Of a stretch of DNA of 64,000 nt, positions 1 through 41,800 are shown piece by piece (the first letter of the stretch is position 1; every line of letters begins with the position of its first letter). The stretch is taken from the IMG/VR virus record IMGVR_UViG_3300009305_000018; one strand, given 5' to 3'. A program made the position numbers and the translations under genes. The stretch is from a virus. The notes beneath the pieces were generated by a model. The model did no database searches and was not told the DNA's origin. It saw nothing but the letters and a program-made list of their open reading frames with translations.

Positions 1-52
1 TACCACATTACAAGAGGTTTATTCACCATAAGCGAAGATAACACTTGAATAC

Positions 53-67
53 TTCGGTCATTCCGAA
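53..67. promoter_or_regulatory. Operator O1 TTCGGTCATTCCGAA
   Basis: 15-bp palindrome TTCGG-N5-CCGAA between cI and cro; matches two other copies. Confidence 0.75.
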
Positions 68-151
68 GAGGTGAAAAGATAGTAAACTACTAAGTTTATT
101 CGATAAAAAATAGAAATATACGTTAAAAGCGAAGAAAAGTCTATAAATCTA

Positions 152-180
152 TTGACAACTTCGGTATTACCGAATATACT
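152..180 (+). promoter_or_regulatory. Early lytic sigma-A promoter with operator O2 (160-174) in its spacer
   Basis: TTGACA(152-157)-17 bp-TATACT(175-180); the spacer contains TTCGGTATTACCGAA. Confidence 0.9.
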
Positions 181-212
181 AGGGTTAGTTAAGAGAGAGG
201 GGGCAGCAAATA

Positions 213-440
213 GTGCAATGGAATTTAATCATCACGCGAAAAGAAAATCACTTAAAGCAAGAAGATTTAGCCGAATTGTTAAACATTTCCACTGATGCGT
301 ACGGATTGAAGGAACGAGGGCAGGTTCAATTTAAGGCAGACGAAATGTTTATGCTGAGTGAATACTTCGGAAAGAGTATAGAACAACTTTTTTTACCGTC
401 AAACTTCGGTAATACCGAAAAAATGGAGGTGAGAGCATGA
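213..440 (+). CDS. cro: Cro-like XRE HTH regulator
   Basis: 75 aa HTH (QEDLAELLNIS...YGLKERG); first gene of the rightward operon, divergent from the repressor. Confidence 0.85.
   Translation: MQWNLIITRKENHLKQEDLAELLNISTDAYGLKERGQVQFKADEMFMLSEYFGKSIEQLFLPSNFGNTEKMEVRA
405..419. promoter_or_regulatory. Operator O3 TTCGGTAATACCGAA inside the cro 3' end
   Basis: Same palindrome as O2 with one central difference. Confidence 0.7.
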
Positions 441-35836: not shown

Positions 35837-36551
35837 ATTGTGTTTCTCCATTAACATCAATTCGAGTCGCGTTCATTGCGCCTGTCATTCCTACCACGTT
35901 ATCTACCCCTAAATCAGACGATGCATATCCATCACCAGATAAAGGTCCCCATACTTCAATTTGATCACCTACACTTGCCGAAACTTCATAGGGAGGAAAG
36001 ATAGGCATCACATATCCTTGCTCATTTTTAACTAGTAAGGCATCTTCCATAACTCCGAAGAGACCTTCAACTTTTTCAATTTTGATCAATTCACCTTTTA
36101 AATGATAATTCATTCCTTTAAATTTTGATTCAGTTTTGTCGTACAACATTGCGCCTGGTTTAGCGGGATACTCTTCAGCGTTTGCGATAGCATCGGGTTG
36201 ATAAACTACTTCCCCAGGCGGGACTACTTTTTTCTCGGGTTCTGTTTTCACTTCGGTTTTCTTTTCTTCTATTGCTTCGGGTTTAGCTTCTTCTTTTGGC
36301 TCAGTTTTCACCACTGGTGCTGACGTTTCGATTTTCTTAGGTCCGTCTGCTTGCTCGGTTGCTGCAGTTTCGATCGTTGCGTCAAAACCAATAGTCGCTA
36401 AAACCATCATTGCAAATGTAATTCCTAAAAGTTTCAGGTGCTTCTTACGGGTTACTTTATTTTTTTTAATTGCAGAAATGATTGTTCGCACGATGAAGTA
36501 TAAGAGTGCTGCCGTGGACAATAACGCTATGATGAAAAATAAACTATTCAA
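35835..36551 (-). CDS. Two-TM membrane protein with Pro/Glu/Lys linker and C-terminal globular domain (moron)
   Basis: Hydrophobic segments at about aa 1-27 and 40-57; SD GGAGG before TTG; own promoter TTGCCA-17-TACCAT (36612..36584). Confidence 0.75.
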   Translation of the reverse strand: MNSLFFIIALLSTAALLYFIVRTIISAIKKNKVTRKKHLKLLGITFAMMVLATIGFDATIETAATEQADGPKKIETSAPVVKTEPKEEAKPEAIEEKKTEVKTEPEKKVVPPGEVVYQPDAIANAEEYPAKPGAMLYDKTESKFKGMNYHLKGELIKIEKVEGLFGVMEDALLVKNEQGYVMPIFPPYEVSASVGDQIEVWGPLSGDGYASSDLGVDNVVGMTGAMNATRIDVNGETQ

Positions 36552-36630
36552 TTGTGAACCTCCTAATATTTTCTGTTAGTTCTATGGTACTGTATTGTGG
36601 ATGAAGTGGCAATATGTGGACGACTTCCTA

Positions 36631-37233
36631 CTATTCAACCCTGCGCCATCCATTGACAACAAAATCCCCCACATACATCAACATATCTGCCCAAGCAATA
36701 ACAGTTTTATACGGATTTTCAGAGTTGATATATTTCATGACCTTCTTTAATTCGGTTTGGTGTTCCTCGGTTAGTCGTTTTCTCTTAGAGTAATTTCTCA
36801 TAAGAGTGTGGATGAAATCGGGATCACGGATGCTGGCGCTAAGTAAGATTGCGACTGCACGAGAAGGAGTGACATCTAGGGCGAATGCTAACAATCCAAT
36901 GTTTTCAAAATCATCTGTTGTAAATTTAGCGGTGATTCGTTCATGAAAGCTTTTATCCTTTTTACGCTGCAATGAAGGATTATCTAAACTACCAAAGTAG
37001 ATGGTATTTCCAAGTCGCACCCCTCTCCGAAAGTTAGGCTTCAATAATCCCATTACCTCTTTTGATTGAATACCTTCCGCACACAGGATCACCGCAATGT
37101 CTTTGACAGGTAAATCGCATATGTCGGACAAGCGGTAGATGTTTTTCTTTAAATGAACAGGAATCACTGGCTTCACATCTCGCTTTTTATCCGACCTAAC
37201 CTTTCTTTCTCCCCTATCCCCCACCGTTTCCAC
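36631..37233 (-). CDS. Putative tandem RHH-like DNA-binding protein
   Basis: RKVRSDKKRDVKPVI..HLK..IYRL and RITAKF..DDF..IGLLAFALD.TPSRAVAILL; divergent from the ParM gene. Confidence 0.55.
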   Translation of the reverse strand: METVGDRGERKVRSDKKRDVKPVIPVHLKKNIYRLSDICDLPVKDIAVILCAEGIQSKEVMGLLKPNFRRGVRLGNTIYFGSLDNPSLQRKKDKSFHERITAKFTTDDFENIGLLAFALDVTPSRAVAILLSASIRDPDFIHTLMRNYSKRKRLTEEHQTELKKVMKYINSENPYKTVIAWADMLMYVGDFVVNGWRRVE

Positions 37234-37332
37234 CCTCTCTTATCGTGGTATTTGATTAGGACACATTCCGCAGTCCTAACTATAAATCTACTATACGCAG
37301 GATAGGGGAGTGGTATGAATCACTATTTATAT

Positions 37333-37361
37333 GAATATTTGGTTCAATCTACTAATACACT
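37333..37361 (+). promoter_or_regulatory. Sigma-E-like sporulation promoter upstream of the ParM gene
   Basis: GAATATT-14 bp-AATACACT versus the B. subtilis sigma-E consensus (G/T)(A/C)ATA(A/C/T)(A/C/T)-14-CATACA(A/C)T. Confidence 0.55.
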
Positions 37362-37443
37362 ATGTAATGCAACGGTAATTCATTGAGAGTGTGGATGACT
37401 AGTTTGGTAATGCAGGAGTATTACATTATAGGAGGATGATAGA

Positions 37444-38304
37444 ATGGGTGGATTAATACTGGGATTAGATGCAGGGAATCACATGGCGAAGGTGGCAGGA
37501 CCTTACGGGGTGGATTCATATAGAACAGCCATCTGTGATTGGTTCGAACGGGATGTAGAAGAGTCATTCGGTAACGATGATATGGAATTTGAAATCTGTG
37601 GCAGAAAAGGGTTTGCAGGATCCATTGCTGAACATGAGGATGAATTCGGTGGTGGTTCAATGTTTGGCGATACCAAGGCGCATGAGGATACGAAAATAAG
37701 AGTGCTACTAGCAATCGTTCGTTATGTTAAAAAATACTGTCCACAAGAATACTCAGTAAAAATAGTGGTCGGGCAGCCAGTGAAAACACATAAGGAATCC
37801 GAGAAAAAGAAAATCAAGGATATGTTAATTGGTCATCATAATTTTGTAGTAAACGGCGCTCATAAAAATATAACCATTGAAGCGGTAGAGGTAGCTACAG
37901 AGGGTGGTGGTGCGTTCTGGTCAAACCCCGACAATGGCACGATTAGAGTATTAGACATAGGTAGCGGCACGGTGAATGCGGTCACGACAAAAGATAAGAA
38001 GTTCATTAATAATTCGTCGGAGACATTTAACTTTGGCGTCGAAACGATTAAAAATAAAGCTGATTTAGATGGGTTGTCCCGCGGTATCATCCGAAATACT
38101 ACTAAATTGAAGTGGCATAAGAATGACCGGGTATACGTCTGTGGAGGGATAGCAGAACAAATAGCGCCTTATATAGAAGAACACTATGCAAATTCAGAGG
38201 TGGTCTATCCACAGTTGCAGTGCCAGGACGGTGTTATCGCGGTTCAATCTGTGTTTGCTAACGCGGTAGGATTCTATAACATCGCAAAGGGTGTTTACAG
38301 ATGA
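37444..38304 (+). CDS. parM: ParM/StbA-family actin-like ATPase
   Basis: Phosphate 1 GLDAGN, connect EGGGA, phosphate 2 LDIGSGT, adenosine CGGIA, connect 2 NAVGFY. Confidence 0.9.
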   Translation: MGGLILGLDAGNHMAKVAGPYGVDSYRTAICDWFERDVEESFGNDDMEFEICGRKGFAGSIAEHEDEFGGGSMFGDTKAHEDTKIRVLLAIVRYVKKYCPQEYSVKIVVGQPVKTHKESEKKKIKDMLIGHHNFVVNGAHKNITIEAVEVATEGGGAFWSNPDNGTIRVLDIGSGTVNAVTTKDKKFINNSSETFNFGVETIKNKADLDGLSRGIIRNTTKLKWHKNDRVYVCGGIAEQIAPYIEEHYANSEVVYPQLQCQDGVIAVQSVFANAVGFYNIAKGVYR

Positions 38305-38513
38305 GAAAAATTAAGACGACAAGTTTCAATCAACAAAATGGATATGAAGAAAGGTTGCTGGCATACGCTGAATCACCCGAACATGGTGACTATAGCAACT
38401 ACATCAAGCGATTGATTGGACGCGATATGGAGGGGCAGAGTCGCCCTTCAGTGACGGCATTCGTCGGCGCACCTATAGTTAAGGTGACGGATGATTTTAG
38501 CGGTTTCATTTAA
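38301..38513 (+). CDS. ParR-like RHH adaptor
   Basis: KTTSFN...EERLLAYA...YSNYIKRLI.RD; acidic/hydrophobic tail DDFSGFI; ATGA-coupled to parM. Confidence 0.7.
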   Translation: MRKIKTTSFNQQNGYEERLLAYAESPEHGDYSNYIKRLIGRDMEGQSRPSVTAFVGAPIVKVTDDFSGFI

Positions 38514-38787
38514 CGTCCTGCTGAATTAAACGTATTAATTTTATAGCATGTAGAATTTCCTCGTCTGTTGCGCTAATCTTTATTAACTCCACAGGCGTAT
38601 TAAAGAAGTATCGCGGATCAACTTTGTACACATCAATAATTCTCTGTAGCAGGTCAACAGGTATATCGTATTTACCACGCTCTATTTTCGACAGATTGCT
38701 TTTGTCATGGCTAATTTTATCTGCTAAATTTTGAAGTGTGTCTTTATTTTCGGTTCTTAGTATTCGGATTTTAGTACCGATATTCAT
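38506..38787 (-). CDS. XRE-family HTH regulator
   Basis: IGTKIRILR...TLQNLADKI...SNLSKIERG. Confidence 0.85.
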   Translation of the reverse strand: MNIGTKIRILRTENKDTLQNLADKISHDKSNLSKIERGKYDIPVDLLQRIIDVYKVDPRYFFNTPVELIKISATDEEILHAIKLIRLIQQDVK

Positions 38788-38847
38788 GTGAGCACCACCT
38801 AATTCGTTATAACTTATTGATTCGATGAGACGGCAAGGATACCCTTT

Positions 38848-38899
38848 TTAAGAATAAAAAAAGAGGGGGCAATTAAGCCTCCTCTCTTTATTTTTAAGG
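38848..38899. terminator. Long inverted repeat / terminator downstream of the integrase
   Basis: TTAAGAATAAAAAAAGAGGGGGC-AATTAA-GCCTCCTCTCTTTATTTTTAA. Confidence 0.7.
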
Positions 38900-38937
38900 T
38901 GTGTTACATGTGAATTGAAGCTTGCCCTTCGTTGCAA

Positions 38938-40338
38938 CTATAACCGATTGAATTTCATGTCCGTCACTTCGTACTCATAAGCCTTAGGAACACCGTTCTT
39001 ATCGCGTTTCACGCACGTTCTACTGAATGAAATCTCGTTTACGAACAACGCCATAAACTCAATCGCTTCATCTTTTGTAAGTGTATCGAAGTTTTCTAAG
39101 ACCATCCATCTGAACTTTTCCGCATCTTCAACACTGATTTCGACTTCCTCTTCTAATATCTCGTTTTGTAACGAAGCTATTTCTTCGTTAGCGGATTTTA
39201 TGTTTCTTTGGAATTCTTCGTATGTCATGAAGTCGTCGGCATACATTTGTTGATACTTCAATCTCTTTTGTTCTAATTTCGAAATCTCATTCGTAATTGA
39301 TCGTGTGGGAGCAGGGCTTTTCTTTTTTTCTAACTCCTTTCCTTCCAGTTTGTCGTTTTGAATCTTTTTCATGAATGCTTCTTTAATGTATTTTTCATTC
39401 ACACGAACAAAGCCGTCACCATTTTCATAGCATTTGTTGCAGCGGTAGCTATTTTCAGTCTTGACTAGCGTCCTAGAACACTGTGGACATTTTAGCATTC
39501 CCGAAAACAATCCGCGTGTGGGGGCCTGCAACCTTACTATGTTTTGCTTTTCTATCCTGCGTGACAAGTCCTCAAATTCTTCTGTCGAAATAATCCCCTC
39601 AAATGCTCCTTCCACACTCTTGCCTGCATATACAACAGTTCCGCACAACGCTCGATTGCGCAACACTTGTCGGACTGTCTGATGACTCCAGTTCGCCTTT
39701 CGCGTTCTAGTGGGTATATTGCGACGGTTTAACTCTTGTGATACTCCAGCGACGCTACCGAGTGATTTAAATAGCTCTATCATCAATAGCACAACTTCTT
39801 TTTCTTCATCGTCAATTACTCTTTTTTTATCCACAATCTTGTATCCATAAGGTTGGGCACCCGACGCTTCGTTATCAATCAATATCTTTTGTTCCATTGT
39901 TATCGTGACCCGTTCGCCAAGGTTTTCACGTTCCCATTGCGCCAAGAGCCCGACGAGTCCTATAAACATCCTACCCATCGCTGTGGTTGTATCGTAGTTC
40001 TCTGTCGCTGATTTAAAGGCGCACCCGTGTTCATCGAGCAAACTAAGCGTGTCGAAAAGGTCACGAATGTTCCTAGTCATGCGGTCTAACCTATACACTA
40101 GCAAGATATTTATTTTCTTGTTTATAATGTCTTTTTTTAATCGTATGAAATCAGGACGATTCATATCTTTAGCGGAGTGGCCGGGATCTACGTATAGTTC
40201 TGTTTTCGTCCATCCTTGGGATTCACAGAACAATTTAAGCAAACGTGTCTGTGTATCTATTGAGTACCCTTCTTTGGCGCGTTCCTCAGATGATACTCTG
40301 ACATATATCCCGACGGTTGCATTTGTATTGGTTTCGAT
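38938..40338 (-). CDS. int: Large serine recombinase (integrase); probable non-canonical ATC start
   Basis: Frame open upstream of the TTG call and contains catalytic YVRVSS (Ser at 40291-93); D.G.S....RP, VYRLDR, recombinase domain, CPQC..C Zn ribbon, coiled coil. Confidence 0.85.
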   Translation of the reverse strand: METNTNATVGIYVRVSSEERAKEGYSIDTQTRLLKLFCESQGWTKTELYVDPGHSAKDMNRPDFIRLKKDIINKKINILLVYRLDRMTRNIRDLFDTLSLLDEHGCAFKSATENYDTTTAMGRMFIGLVGLLAQWERENLGERVTITMEQKILIDNEASGAQPYGYKIVDKKRVIDDEEKEVVLLMIELFKSLGSVAGVSQELNRRNIPTRTRKANWSHQTVRQVLRNRALCGTVVYAGKSVEGAFEGIISTEEFEDLSRRIEKQNIVRLQAPTRGLFSGMLKCPQCSRTLVKTENSYRCNKCYENGDGFVRVNEKYIKEAFMKKIQNDKLEGKELEKKKSPAPTRSITNEISKLEQKRLKYQQMYADDFMTYEEFQRNIKSANEEIASLQNEILEEEVEISVEDAEKFRWMVLENFDTLTKDEAIEFMALFVNEISFSRTCVKRDKNGVPKAYEYEVTDMKFNRL

Positions 40339-40436
40339 TTGTGGCGCATCCCTTCTATATAGAAGAAAGAGTTTATTCTTTCTCCAAGCTGTAATTGCTA
40401 TCTAGTTGCTAGAATAGTTTCTTTTGTCTAATATAT

Positions 40437-41322: not shown

Positions 41323-41572
41323 TTCATCTCTCCTTATTATAAAAGTCGCCTATAATAATATACCACATTACAAGAGGTTTATTCACCATAAGCGAAGATA
41401 ACACTTGAATACTTCGGTCATTCCGAAGAGGTGAAAAGATAGTAAACTACTAAGTTTATTCGATAAAAAATAGAAATATACGTTAAAAGCGAAGAAAAGT
41501 CTATAAATCTATTGACAACTTCGGTATTACCGAATATACTAGGGTTAGTTAAGAGAGAGGGGGCAGCAAATA

Positions 41573-41800
41573 GTGCAATGGAATTTAATCATCACGCGAA
41601 AAGAAAATCACTTAAAGCAAGAAGATTTAGCCGAATTGTTAAACATTTCCACTGATGCGTACGGATTGAAGGAACGAGGGCAGGTTCAATTTAAGGCAGA
41701 CGAAATGTTTATGCTGAGTGAATACTTCGGAAAGAGTATAGAACAACTTTTTTTACCGTCAAACTTCGGTAATACCGAAAAAATGGAGGTGAGAGCATGA
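41573..41800 (+). CDS. cro: Cro-like regulator (copy 2)
   Basis: Identical to 213-440. Confidence 0.85.
   Translation: MQWNLIITRKENHLKQEDLAELLNISTDAYGLKERGQVQFKADEMFMLSEYFGKSIEQLFLPSNFGNTEKMEVRA

What the first reader, a model, noticed from the sequence alone, without database searches (positions are those of the whole stretch)
36631..38513. Three-gene actin-like (ParM/ParR-like plus tandem-RHH-like) cassette in an integrase-encoding 41-kb siphophage
Seen: a compact 286-aa ParM with all actin motifs, a coupled RHH adaptor with a short C-terminal tail, and a divergent 200-aa gene with two RHH-like segments; no long parC-type iteron array and no plasmid Rep gene. Known: ParMRC segregates plasmids (R1, pSK41), and the Corynebacterium prophage CGP3 uses actin-like AlpC/AlpA to aid phage DNA replication. 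Inference: a filament system that positions excised or unintegrated phage DNA, or supports a plasmid-like carrier state; the third gene is not part of canonical ParMRC and may define a distinct subtype.
Basis: partly seen in the sequence, partly recalled or inferred. Interest (0 to 1): 0.75.

Follow-up and report, generated by a model that had tools for sequence, protein, structure and literature searches.

The report
Phage actin-like partition cassette, three genes
A 41-kb temperate phage of spore-forming soil bacteria carries a plasmid-style actin-like DNA-moving system (ParM plus a small adaptor). It is almost always paired with an uncharacterised two-in-one DNA-binding protein, a pairing that appears not to have been described.

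Summary
All three ORFs are at the stated coordinates. The 286-aa protein is a ParM/Alp actin-like ATPase; its closest solved relatives are AlfA and pSK41 ParM. The 70-aa gene overlaps parM by 4 nt and has a conserved C-terminal DFSGF[I/L] tail. The divergent 200-aa protein folds as a single-chain tandem ribbon-helix-helix (RHH), most like F-plasmid TraY (VIA Z 10.9).

New here:
- The window is one 41,360-bp genome wrapped on itself.
- The three-gene layout recurs in 14 of 16 full-length ParM loci of this clade in 301 related bacterial genomes, in 9 of 10 informative viral contigs, in phages Lietuvens and PVJ1, and on one 266-kb Sporosarcina plasmid.
- The tandem-RHH family is much wider: 123 Bacillaceae plasmids and 47 of the 301 genomes. 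It mostly stands alone, with its own conserved promoter-like boxes and an inverted-repeat operator.
- Four 8-bp repeats lie upstream of parM and are a candidate mini-centromere.

ParM plus an RHH adaptor in temperate Bacillus phages is already in the literature. The constant tandem-RHH partner is not. I read the cassette as a type II partition or positioning system for unintegrated phage DNA, joined to an autoregulated DNA-binding module of unknown role. It is a new variant of a known kind and of moderate interest. The same scan also noted a sigma-E-like promoter here, which I only partly confirm.

The parts
36631..37233 (-). 200-aa single-chain tandem ribbon-helix-helix protein ('ORF200'). 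It has an invariant N-terminal basic arm (RKVRSDKKRDVKP), two RHH repeats at about residues 16-146, and a helical C-terminal part. A second in-frame GTG at 37224 may be the true start.
   Evidence: ORF. 88 homologues and none of 44 members with a credible Pfam hit. AF2 pLDDT 85.6. VIA Z 10.9 to TraY 9f0x_E with 104 of 113 residues aligned, and Z 7.8 to single-chain Arc. Foldseek hits to TraY chains and AFDB CopG/RHH proteins.
37257..37278 (.). Inverted repeat TAGGAC-N10-GTCCTA, the candidate operator of ORF200. It lies between the ORF200 promoter-like boxes and the ORF200 start.
   Evidence: It is unique in the genome, with 0 expected by chance. An inverted repeat sits at the same place upstream of ORF200 homologues in many genera, and its sequence changes with the protein's strand residues. 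Three of its five pairs show compensatory changes in 22 loci.
37290..37319 (-). Promoter-like boxes for ORF200 (TTCATA-18-TATAGT) enclosing a conserved C-rich spacer (CTCCCC...).
   Evidence: Listed by the consensus scan. The same two boxes and C-rich spacer are conserved upstream of ORF200 homologues from Bacillus, Priestia, Cytobacillus, Sporosarcina and others. Which sigma factor reads them is unknown: the sigma-E consensus match here is not above chance.
37333..37361 (+). Sigma-E-like promoter match GAATATT-14-AATACACT facing parM.
   Evidence: It matches the (T/G)(A/C)ATA(A/T)(A/T)-N14-CATACA(A/C)T consensus at 14 of 15 positions, reached by 0 of 300 shuffles. Strong matches also occur in L042 (15/15), L041 (13/15) and L046 (13/15), but not in the other cassettes. 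The consensus is as quoted in bioRxiv 10.1101/2020.04.13.040188.
37363..37425 (.). Candidate mini-centromere and operator (parC-like). Four copies of KGTAATDC start at 37363 (+), 37374 (+) and 37406 (+), and one on the - strand at 37418-37425. They straddle a weak TTGAGA-17-GGTAAT promoter-like site read by eye.
   Evidence: Four of about 18 genome-wide matches fall within 63 bp (the pattern was derived from these sites, so it is post hoc). A repeat pair 43 bp apart was found independently (D1). Other cassettes carry two ATTAC/GTAAT-type palindromes about 42 bp apart at about -80 and -38 from parM; three of them beat all 200 shuffles.
37444..38304 (+). 286-aa ParM/Alp-family actin-like ATPase, compact like AlfA.
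   Evidence: Pfam, PHROG and NCBIfam results. Profile against the PDB: AlfA 1.5e-11, then Cbc/CBg-ParM, CorM, Alp12, pCBH ParM and pSK41 ParM. Fold results.
38301..38513 (+). 70-aa ParR-like adaptor. It has a basic strand plus two helices (an RHH-like pattern), a variable linker and a conserved acidic-hydrophobic tail ending DFSGFI.
   Evidence: ATGA overlap with parM. Alignment of 23 homologues. PHROG 8966 (unknown function) at 2.4e-9. A ParR-profile gene follows every full-length ParM of the clade. Complex prediction with ParM gave weak support.

Best explanation
The locus is a type II (actin-like, ParMRC/AlfAB-type) DNA segregation or positioning cassette carried by a temperate siphophage of Sporosarcina/Psychrobacillus-like spore formers.

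Inferred mechanism, by analogy with the family:
- The 70-aa adaptor binds as an RHH dimer to the four short GTAAT-type repeats just upstream of parM (37363-37425). There it represses the parMR promoter and marks the phage DNA.
- Its C-terminal DFSGFI tail docks on ParM.
- ATP-bound ParM filaments push or position adaptor-bound circular phage genomes.

Nearly all full-length ParM copies of this clade found in bacterial genomes lie on contigs of 77 kb to several Mb, which suggests integrated prophages, and the cassette sits beside integrase genes in several phages. The likely job is therefore to distribute or place phage DNA while it is NOT integrated. That means before integration, after excision, during replication, or in a carrier state that may include sporulating cells. 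It is probably not long-term plasmid lysogeny.

The divergent 200-aa gene encodes a monomeric pseudo-dimer RHH protein with a TraY-like fold. It most likely binds the inverted repeat in its own leader (37257-37278) and autoregulates. It belongs to a wide mobile-element family of spore-forming Bacillales that usually stands alone. In this phage clade it has been stably co-inherited with parMR.

What is shown: gene identities, folds, repeats and neighbourhood statistics. What is inferred: all DNA binding, protein contacts, filament formation and the biological role.
For: ParM identity.

Adaptor: translational coupling, a conserved N-terminal strand-helix-helix pattern and C-terminal tail, and presence after every full-length ParM of the clade.

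Complex prediction of ParM with the adaptor gave weak support: score 0.51 against a best control of 0.00. The mark was reached by 58 of 80 solved complexes and 2 of 110 mismatched pairs. At 0.60 or under it was reached by only 7 of those 80 and by both mismatches. The runs agree in at least 48% of contacts, and the partner's pLDDT is at least 65. A like complex (R1 ParM with a ParR peptide, 4a62) is solved, so the pass may reflect likeness.

Repeats.

Cassette conservation: 14 of 16 genome loci, 9 of 10 informative viral contigs, phages Lietuvens and PVJ1, and plasmid pSP10-266k. ORF200 and ParM pairwise identities correlate across ten cassettes (Spearman 0.56).

ORF200 fold and operator. TraY is an RHH dimer in a single chain (PMC12117103).

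Large-contig or chromosomal copies: 13 of the 16 loci lie at contig coordinates of 77 kb or more, up to 2.15 Mb, including the complete chromosome of Sporosarcina sp. A2.

Precedents:
- AlfA/AlfB stabilises pLS32 in growth and sporulation (bioRxiv 10.1101/190744).
- AlpAC of the integrated prophage CGP3 (PMC4446434).
- ParM plus an RHH adaptor in Bacillus plasmid prophages (PMC8026635).
- Active partition of the integrating SXT/R391 elements (PMC4489591).
Against: - No sequence family or solved structure matches the adaptor. Its RHH fold rests on a residue pattern and a 3%-probability hhalign match.
- Within this window alone, the repeats upstream of parM are not longer than in shuffled sequence.
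- The KGTAATDC pattern was defined after seeing the sites.
- The complex prediction is only weak support.
- The recombinase has no canonical start before its catalytic serine, so integration by this particular phage is not assured, and a plasmid-like prophage cannot be excluded.
- Nothing here shows expression, polymerisation or DNA binding.
Confidence: 0.6

Rival explanations
1. The 200-aa tandem-RHH protein is an integral third component of the partition machine, as TubY is for TubZRC. It would be a second DNA-binding or filament-modulating factor that ParMR of this clade needs in order to work.
For: The association is asymmetric: ParMR of this clade almost never occurs without ORF200 (14 of 16 and 9 of 10 loci), whereas ORF200 often occurs without ParMR. 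The two are co-inherited. The same trio sits on a 266-kb plasmid. Three-protein partition systems exist, for example TubZ/TubR/TubY (PMC7762940 abstract). Chromosomal ParMR cassettes with two putative ParRs have been reported (PMC12270681).
Against: ORF200 has its own promoter-like boxes and its own operator, conserved in loci that lack ParMR. That operator lies about 60-100 bp from the parM promoter region, not over it. ParMR-linked ORF200s form three clades in an unresolved polytomy with orphan copies. A single historical insertion next to a common mobile-element gene would give the same statistics. No interaction test was run.
Confidence: 0.2
2. ParMR serves the lytic cycle only, like AlpC/AlpA of prophage CGP3. 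It would move replicating phage DNA to a favourable site and raise replication or burst size, with no role in inheritance of episomes.
For: This ParM clade is found far more in phage records (55) than in plasmid records (15). Its more distant relatives include large phages such as Basilisk and D6E, where the gene sits beside lysis or integrase genes. The CGP3 precedent is PMC4446434. parMR is on the same strand as the late and lysis genes.
Against: The cassette has its own promoter region and is separated from the late operon by two opposite-strand genes. The closest characterised relative by sequence, AlfA, is a plasmid segregation motor. The trio also occurs on a plasmid. The two roles are not mutually exclusive.
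Confidence: 0.3
3. The cassette is timed by sporulation: mother-cell sigma-E-type promoters drive parMR so that phage DNA is handled specifically in sporulating cells.
For: A 14 of 15 match to the sigma-E consensus lies upstream of parM (0 of 300 shuffles reach it). Matches of 15/15, 13/15 and 13/15 occur in three other independent cassettes. The whole ORF200 family is confined to endospore-forming Bacillales in the hits seen. AlfA aids plasmid stability in sporulation.
Against: Most other cassettes show no better match than shuffles. The match for the ORF200 promoter is at chance level. Short AT-rich consensus matches are weak evidence. A mother-cell promoter would not obviously help DNA reach the forespore.
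Confidence: 0.15
4. ORF200 is a relaxosome accessory factor (TraY/VirC2-like) that marks an origin of transfer.
For: The best structural matches are TraY chains of the F relaxosome. VirC2 also appears, weakly.
Against: There is no sequence similarity to TraY and no Pfam hit. No relaxase was seen beside it in the window or in the phage cassettes. 64 of the 123 plasmids that carry the family are typed non-mobilizable. No relaxase-like conserved neighbour was found. The shared feature is a general single-chain RHH fold, also matched by single-chain Arc and AvtR.
Confidence: 0.03

Closest known systems
AlfA/AlfB/parN of Bacillus subtilis plasmid pLS32 (pBS32)
   Same: An actin-like motor with a small downstream DNA-binding adaptor and short repeats in the promoter region. 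AlfA is the best sequence-profile match among solved structures (E 1.5e-11) and a top fold match (TM by target 0.79-0.82). Both motors are unusually small (275 and 286 aa). The host group is spore-forming Bacillales. AlfA stabilises its plasmid in growth and sporulation.
   Different: Only about 20% identity in the structural alignment. The carrier here is a temperate phage with a serine recombinase, not a plasmid. No tandem-RHH partner is described for AlfAB. Loss of subdomain IIB was not explicitly verified here.
ParM plus RHH adaptor of Bacillus cereus-group plasmid prophages (IEBH, vB_BtS_B83, pBtic235-like)
   Same: Temperate siphophages that carry a ParM-like protein, a small RHH-type adaptor and a putative centromere (PMC8026635).
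   Different: Those phages are described as replicating as plasmids, with Xer-type recombinases. Here most relatives lie on large contigs or chromosomes and the recombinase is a large serine type. Those phages did not appear among the ORF200 hits in the phage collection, which returned only Lietuvens and PVJ1.
AlpC/AlpA of Corynebacterium prophage CGP3
   Same: An actin-like protein plus a DNA-binding adaptor encoded by an integrating prophage and acting on excised phage DNA (PMC4446434, PMC5539076).
   Different: A different Alp family and phylum. No sequence match was seen here. There is no equivalent of the tandem-RHH gene.
F-plasmid TraY (single-chain tandem RHH)
   Same: ORF200 residues 16-146 superpose on TraY with Z 10.9 and rmsd 2.8 over 104 of 113 residues. 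Both hold a whole RHH dimer in one polypeptide (PMC12117103).
   Different: 12-17% identity and no Pfam TraY hit. ORF200 has an extra conserved basic N-terminal arm and a helical C-terminal part of about 50 residues. There is no relaxase context.
TubZ/TubR/TubY type III partition
   Same: A cytomotive filament, a centromere-binding adaptor and a third DNA-binding modulator encoded alongside (PMC7762940 abstract).
   Different: A tubulin-like rather than actin-like motor. No fold or sequence relation between TubY and ORF200 was shown here. A role for ORF200 in partition is unproven.

Membership tests
ParM/Alp actin-like segregation ATPases (Pfam ALP_N, PF17989) | Actin/Hsp70-type fold with the ALP N-terminal domain | tested here: met
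   ALP_N scores 56.2 bits against a cut-off of 26.3. The AF2 model has pLDDT 88.8. Foldseek: pSK41 ParM 1.8e-17, AlfA 1.7e-16, then Alp12, CorM, Alp7A and R1 ParM.
ParM/Alp actin-like segregation ATPases (Pfam ALP_N, PF17989) | Conserved nucleotide-binding motifs (phosphate 1, phosphate 2, adenosine) | tested here: met
   D9-A10-G11-N12 and K16, D171-G173-S-G-T176 and G234-G235 are invariant or at least 90% conserved in 42 homologues. The motifs were named from general knowledge of the actin fold.
ParM/Alp actin-like segregation ATPases (Pfam ALP_N, PF17989) | Nucleotide-dependent polymerisation into filaments | not testable with these tools
   This needs purified protein, for example light scattering, electron microscopy and ATPase assays.
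Type II partition locus (ParMRC) | Small adaptor gene next to the motor gene and co-expressed with it | tested here: met
   The 4-nt ATGA overlap at 38301-38304. A ParR-profile gene follows every full-length ParM of the clade.
Type II partition locus (ParMRC) | The adaptor is a ribbon-helix-helix DNA-binding dimer | tested here: inconclusive
   A strand plus two-helix residue pattern is conserved. There is no Pfam, NCBIfam or PDB sequence match. hhalign against the ORF200 RHH repeat gives only 3% probability.
Type II partition locus (ParMRC) | The adaptor's C-terminus binds the motor | tested here: inconclusive
   The DFSGF[I/L] tail is conserved. Complex prediction gave weak support: 0.51 against a best control of 0.00. 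The mark was reached by 58 of 80 solved complexes and 2 of 110 mismatched pairs, but at 0.60 or under by only 7 of the 80 and by both mismatches. Contact agreement is at least 48% and the partner's pLDDT at least 65. A similar solved complex exists.
Type II partition locus (ParMRC) | Centromere of repeated adaptor sites at or near the promoter | tested here: inconclusive
   Four KGTAATDC copies lie in 63 bp (a post hoc pattern). Paired palindromes sit at about -80 and -38 in other cassettes. In this window alone the repeats are not above shuffles. Binding was not tested.
Type II partition locus (ParMRC) | Stabilises a low-copy replicon | not testable with these tools
   This needs a plasmid-stability assay.
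AlfA subfamily | Compact actin lacking subdomain IIB | tested here: inconclusive
   286 aa against 275 aa for AlfA. The profile alignment is co-linear (query 71-246, AlfA 71-237). TM by target is 0.82. The model shows only one helix and a short strand between the phosphate-2 and adenosine motifs. The subdomain was not delimited explicitly, and identity is only about 20%.
TraY family (single-chain tandem RHH relaxosome accessory proteins) | Two RHH repeats in one chain forming a pseudo-dimer | tested here: met
   AF2 gives strand-helix-helix twice. VIA gives Z 10.9 to TraY and Z 7.8 to single-chain Arc.
TraY family (single-chain tandem RHH relaxosome accessory proteins) | Sequence homology to TraY | tested here: not met
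   None of the 44 family members has a credible Pfam hit. Identity in the structural alignments is 12-17%.
TraY family (single-chain tandem RHH relaxosome accessory proteins) | Encoded with a relaxase and oriT | tested here: not met
   No relaxase-like conserved neighbour was found in 50 loci. 64 of the 123 carrier plasmids are typed non-mobilizable.
AbiJ N-terminal domain 5 (PF18865) | A score above the Pfam gathering cut-off that is shared by relatives | tested here: not met
   20.5 bits against a cut-off of 26.7, and only 1 of 44 family members matches. There is no PADLOC hit.

The most novel reading that the evidence does not exclude
The tandem-RHH protein is a required third part of a phage-borne actin-like segregation system. 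It would be a new ParMR subtype that lets integrase-bearing temperate phages of spore formers persist and be inherited as unintegrated episomes, possibly through sporulation. The same protein family, together with a ~30-aa lysine-tailed peptide, would then be an undescribed maintenance module on more than 100 Bacillaceae plasmids.
Probability: 0.15. Interest if true: 0.7.

Novelty: new variant of a known kind. Interest (0 to 1): 0.5.

Why it matters
Actin-like partition genes in integrating phages are common in databases but functionally almost unexplored; CGP3 AlpAC is the main studied case.

This cassette gives a compact, well-delimited test system. It has a motor, an adaptor with a recognisable tail, four candidate binding repeats, and a constant third DNA-binding gene with a defined operator.

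If the third gene proves necessary, type II partition would gain a three-protein variant comparable to TubZRY.

Independently, the tandem-RHH family is a widespread, unnamed gene of plasmids and phages of spore-forming Bacillales. It was found on 123 plasmids and in 47 of 301 related genomes, with a strikingly conserved upstream region, and its function is open.

Tried and rejected
- Megablast of 36500-38900 against the phage collection found no match.
- The AbiJ_NTD5 hit of ORF200 is below cut-off and occurs in only 1 of 44 relatives, so I rejected it. PADLOC gave nothing for the three genes.
- The adaptor profile found nothing meaningful against PDB sequences or Pfam. The ORF200 profile also found nothing against PDB sequences. 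NCBIfam gave only sub-threshold ParM-like hits for ParM and nothing for the other two.
- The protein atlas returned only unnamed clusters and weak RHH leads.
- A repeat-length test on the 130 bp before parM was not above shuffles in this window. The first version of that script timed out.
- The sigma-E consensus match on the ORF200 side is at chance level, so the conserved boxes there cannot be assigned to a sigma factor.
- I considered a long-range RNA pairing between the C-rich box (37300-37310) and the start of ORF200 (37209-37219; an 11-nt perfect complement). RNAalifold on 22 loci predicted only the short inverted-repeat hairpin, so this is dropped as unsupported.
- A conserved large neighbour of ORF200 outside the phage cassettes was looked for and not found.
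- No RNA holder was listed among sequencing runs, and only a 0.12-share metagenome run turned up, so no reads were laid.
- The exact-sequence contig look-up for ORF200 found nothing on record.
- The nearest held virus record (G001) has the same cassette but no match to the recombinase.
- An ORF200-ParM or ORF200-ParR complex prediction was not run because the single job went to ParM-ParR.
Full report
**What the window is.** Positions 1-300 are identical to 41361-41660 and the ORF list repeats with a 41,360-bp offset. The window is therefore one circularly permuted 41,360-bp phage genome read past its end. The gene order is:
- an early module: HNH, methyltransferase, Gam-like, Sak4-like, helicase, SSB and a 766-aa primase;
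- structural genes;
- holin and an M15 endolysin;
- the locus in question;
- an HTH gene, a large serine recombinase, and two HTH repressor-like genes.

**The observation.** The three ORFs are exactly as described.

The 286-aa protein is a ParM/Alp-family actin-like ATPase. Pfam ALP_N scores 56.2 bits (cut-off 26.3) and PHROG 691 'partition protein' gives 2e-41. A profile of 42 homologues finds AlfA (1.5e-11), then Cbc/CBg-ParM, CorM, Alp12, pCBH ParM and pSK41 ParM among solved structures. The AlphaFold model (pLDDT 88.8) matches pSK41 ParM, AlfA, Alp12, CorM, Alp7A and R1 ParM. The nucleotide-binding motifs are invariant or nearly so.

The 70-aa gene overlaps parM by ATGA. It has no family assignment. 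Twenty-three homologues share a basic strand, two helices and a C-terminal DFSGF[I/L].

A ParM-adaptor complex prediction gave weak support. The score was 0.51 against a best control of 0.00. That mark was reached by 58 of 80 solved complexes and 2 of 110 mismatched pairs, but at 0.60 or under by only 7 of the 80 and by both mismatches. Contact agreement was at least 48% and the partner's pLDDT at least 65. A similar complex is solved, so likeness may explain the pass.

**The third gene.** The 200-aa protein has 88 close homologues and no Pfam family. Its model (pLDDT 85.6, pTM 0.80) shows strand-helix-helix twice, followed by further helices. An exhaustive structural search puts F-plasmid TraY first (Z 10.9, rmsd 2.8, 104 of 113 residues). 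Next come permuted single-chain Arc (Z 7.8) and the archaeal-virus regulator AvtR (Z 6.0). Foldseek agrees and adds CopG/RHH proteins. F TraY is a monomer that contains a whole RHH dimer in one chain (PMC12117103). It carries an invariant basic N-terminal arm (R13, D15-K17, P22) and an extra C-terminal helical part.

**Is the trio a unit?** Starting from ParM, the answer is yes:
- Of 11 viral contigs with a ParM at 55-100% identity, 9 have an ORF200-family gene divergently upstream. One is cut at ParM and one lacks it.
- In 301 species genomes of the bacterial family of Sporosarcina sp. A2, 18 carry this ParM. Of 16 full-length loci at 54% identity or more, 14 have ORF200 divergently upstream and all have the adaptor.
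- The same layout occurs in Sporosarcina phage Lietuvens, Psychrobacillus phage PVJ1, a myovirus-like contig, and the 266-kb plasmid pSP10-266k.
- ORF200 and ParM pairwise identities correlate across ten cassettes (Spearman 0.56).

Starting from ORF200, the picture differs. The family is on 123 Bacillaceae plasmids and in 47 of the same 301 genomes. Only 2 of 35 genome loci found through ORF200 have ParMR, and no other large neighbour is conserved. In a tree, the ParMR-linked copies form three supported clades inside an unresolved group with orphan copies. One origin is not excluded.

**Regulatory anatomy.** Upstream of ORF200 homologues from many genera the same elements recur. They are a box (A/T)CATA(A/C)C, a C-rich 14-nt spacer, a box CATA(T/C)A.., then an inverted repeat of the type TAGGACA-N9-TGTCCTA, then the ribosome site.

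In the window these elements are at 37319-37290 (TTCATA-18-TATAGT, also listed) and 37257-37278. The inverted repeat is unique in the genome. Across loci its sequence changes together with the protein's strand residues, and three of its five pairs show compensatory changes. This is what an autoregulatory operator looks like. It lies in the ORF200 leader, not over the parM promoter.

On the parM side, four copies of KGTAATDC lie in 37363-37425 (a post hoc pattern). Other cassettes carry two ATTAC/GTAAT-type palindromes about 42 bp apart at about -80 and -38; three of them beat all shuffles. In this window alone the repeats are not longer than chance. I take them as a candidate mini-centromere and operator, by analogy with parC and parN.

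**Sporulation lead.** Another note of this scan proposed a sigma-E promoter for parM. Against the consensus quoted in bioRxiv 10.1101/2020.04.13.040188, the window scores 14 of 15 (0 of 300 shuffles reach that). PVJ1 scores 15/15, Lietuvens 13/15 and one viral contig 13/15, but the other cassettes are at chance. On the ORF200 side the match is at chance. The lead stays open and is not established.

**What it most likely does.** The motor, the coupled adaptor with a conserved tail, and the promoter-proximal repeats fit a type II partition or positioning system, closest to AlfA/AlfB/parN. Most relatives lie on large contigs or chromosomes, and related phages place ParM next to an integrase (Basilisk) or after the lysis genes (D6E). 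A role while the phage DNA is not integrated is therefore the most economical reading. An AlpC-like role in replication is a live alternative. ORF200 is best read as an autoregulated DNA-binding module that travels with parMR. A true third-component role, comparable to TubY, is possible but untested.

**Comparison with the literature.** ParM plus an RHH adaptor in temperate Bacillus phages is documented (PMC8026635; PMC9703825). So are chromosomal ParMR cassettes, some with two putative ParRs (PMC12270681). I found no description of the tandem-RHH family or of its linkage to ParMR. The one paper that mentions Lietuvens concerns an endolysin.

**Verdict.** It is a new variant of a known kind and of moderate interest.

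Noticed in passing
L008:5793-5900 region; L049, L050, L024, L041, L047, L051 intergenic regions; most of L001-L040 upstream of ORF200: A ~30-aa gene encoding M(K)MTKEEA..LAKK.IE.SKKYGIPLKKKKKK (a helix plus a lysine tail) lies divergent from ORF200 in at least 24 loci. In phage cassettes it sits just before parM or is inverted. It is absent from this window and its closest relatives. It has no Pfam or NCBIfam match.
   Followed up: partly
window 40243-40401 (-): The serine recombinase frame is open upstream of the first TTG (40242) and encodes the catalytic GIYVRVSS motif there. No in-frame ATG, GTG or TTG precedes it, so the enzyme needs a non-canonical start or is N-terminally defective.
   Followed up: partly
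window 1-300 and 41361-41660: The window is a 41,360-bp genome wrapped on itself, so everything after 41360 repeats the start.
   Followed up: yes
L042, L052, L064, L068, L070: Some cassettes carry two ParR-like genes in tandem after parM.
   Followed up: no
window 38506-38513 and 38862-38885: The adaptor gene and the opposite-strand HTH gene (38506-38787) overlap by 8 bp at their 3' ends. The only + strand terminator-like hairpin after parMR is at 38862-38885. parMR transcripts would therefore run antisense through the HTH gene.
   Followed up: no
window 37209-37219 and 37300-37310: A perfect 11-nt complement links the C-rich box upstream of ORF200 to the start of its coding region. A conserved RNA pairing was not supported by RNAalifold on 22 loci.
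   Followed up: yes
L015 (Streptomyces sp. NPDC016469, 2.1-kb contig): An ORF200 homologue with the full Bacillus-type upstream region sits on a tiny contig labelled Streptomyces. This is probably contamination of that assembly by a Bacillales plasmid.
   Followed up: no
L001 (B. methanolicus pBM69, record 44.9-53.4 kb): The orphan ORF200 copy on pBM69 lies among sporulation and germination genes: Ger(x)C, three YjcZ-family genes and a Spo0E-family phosphatase.
   Followed up: no
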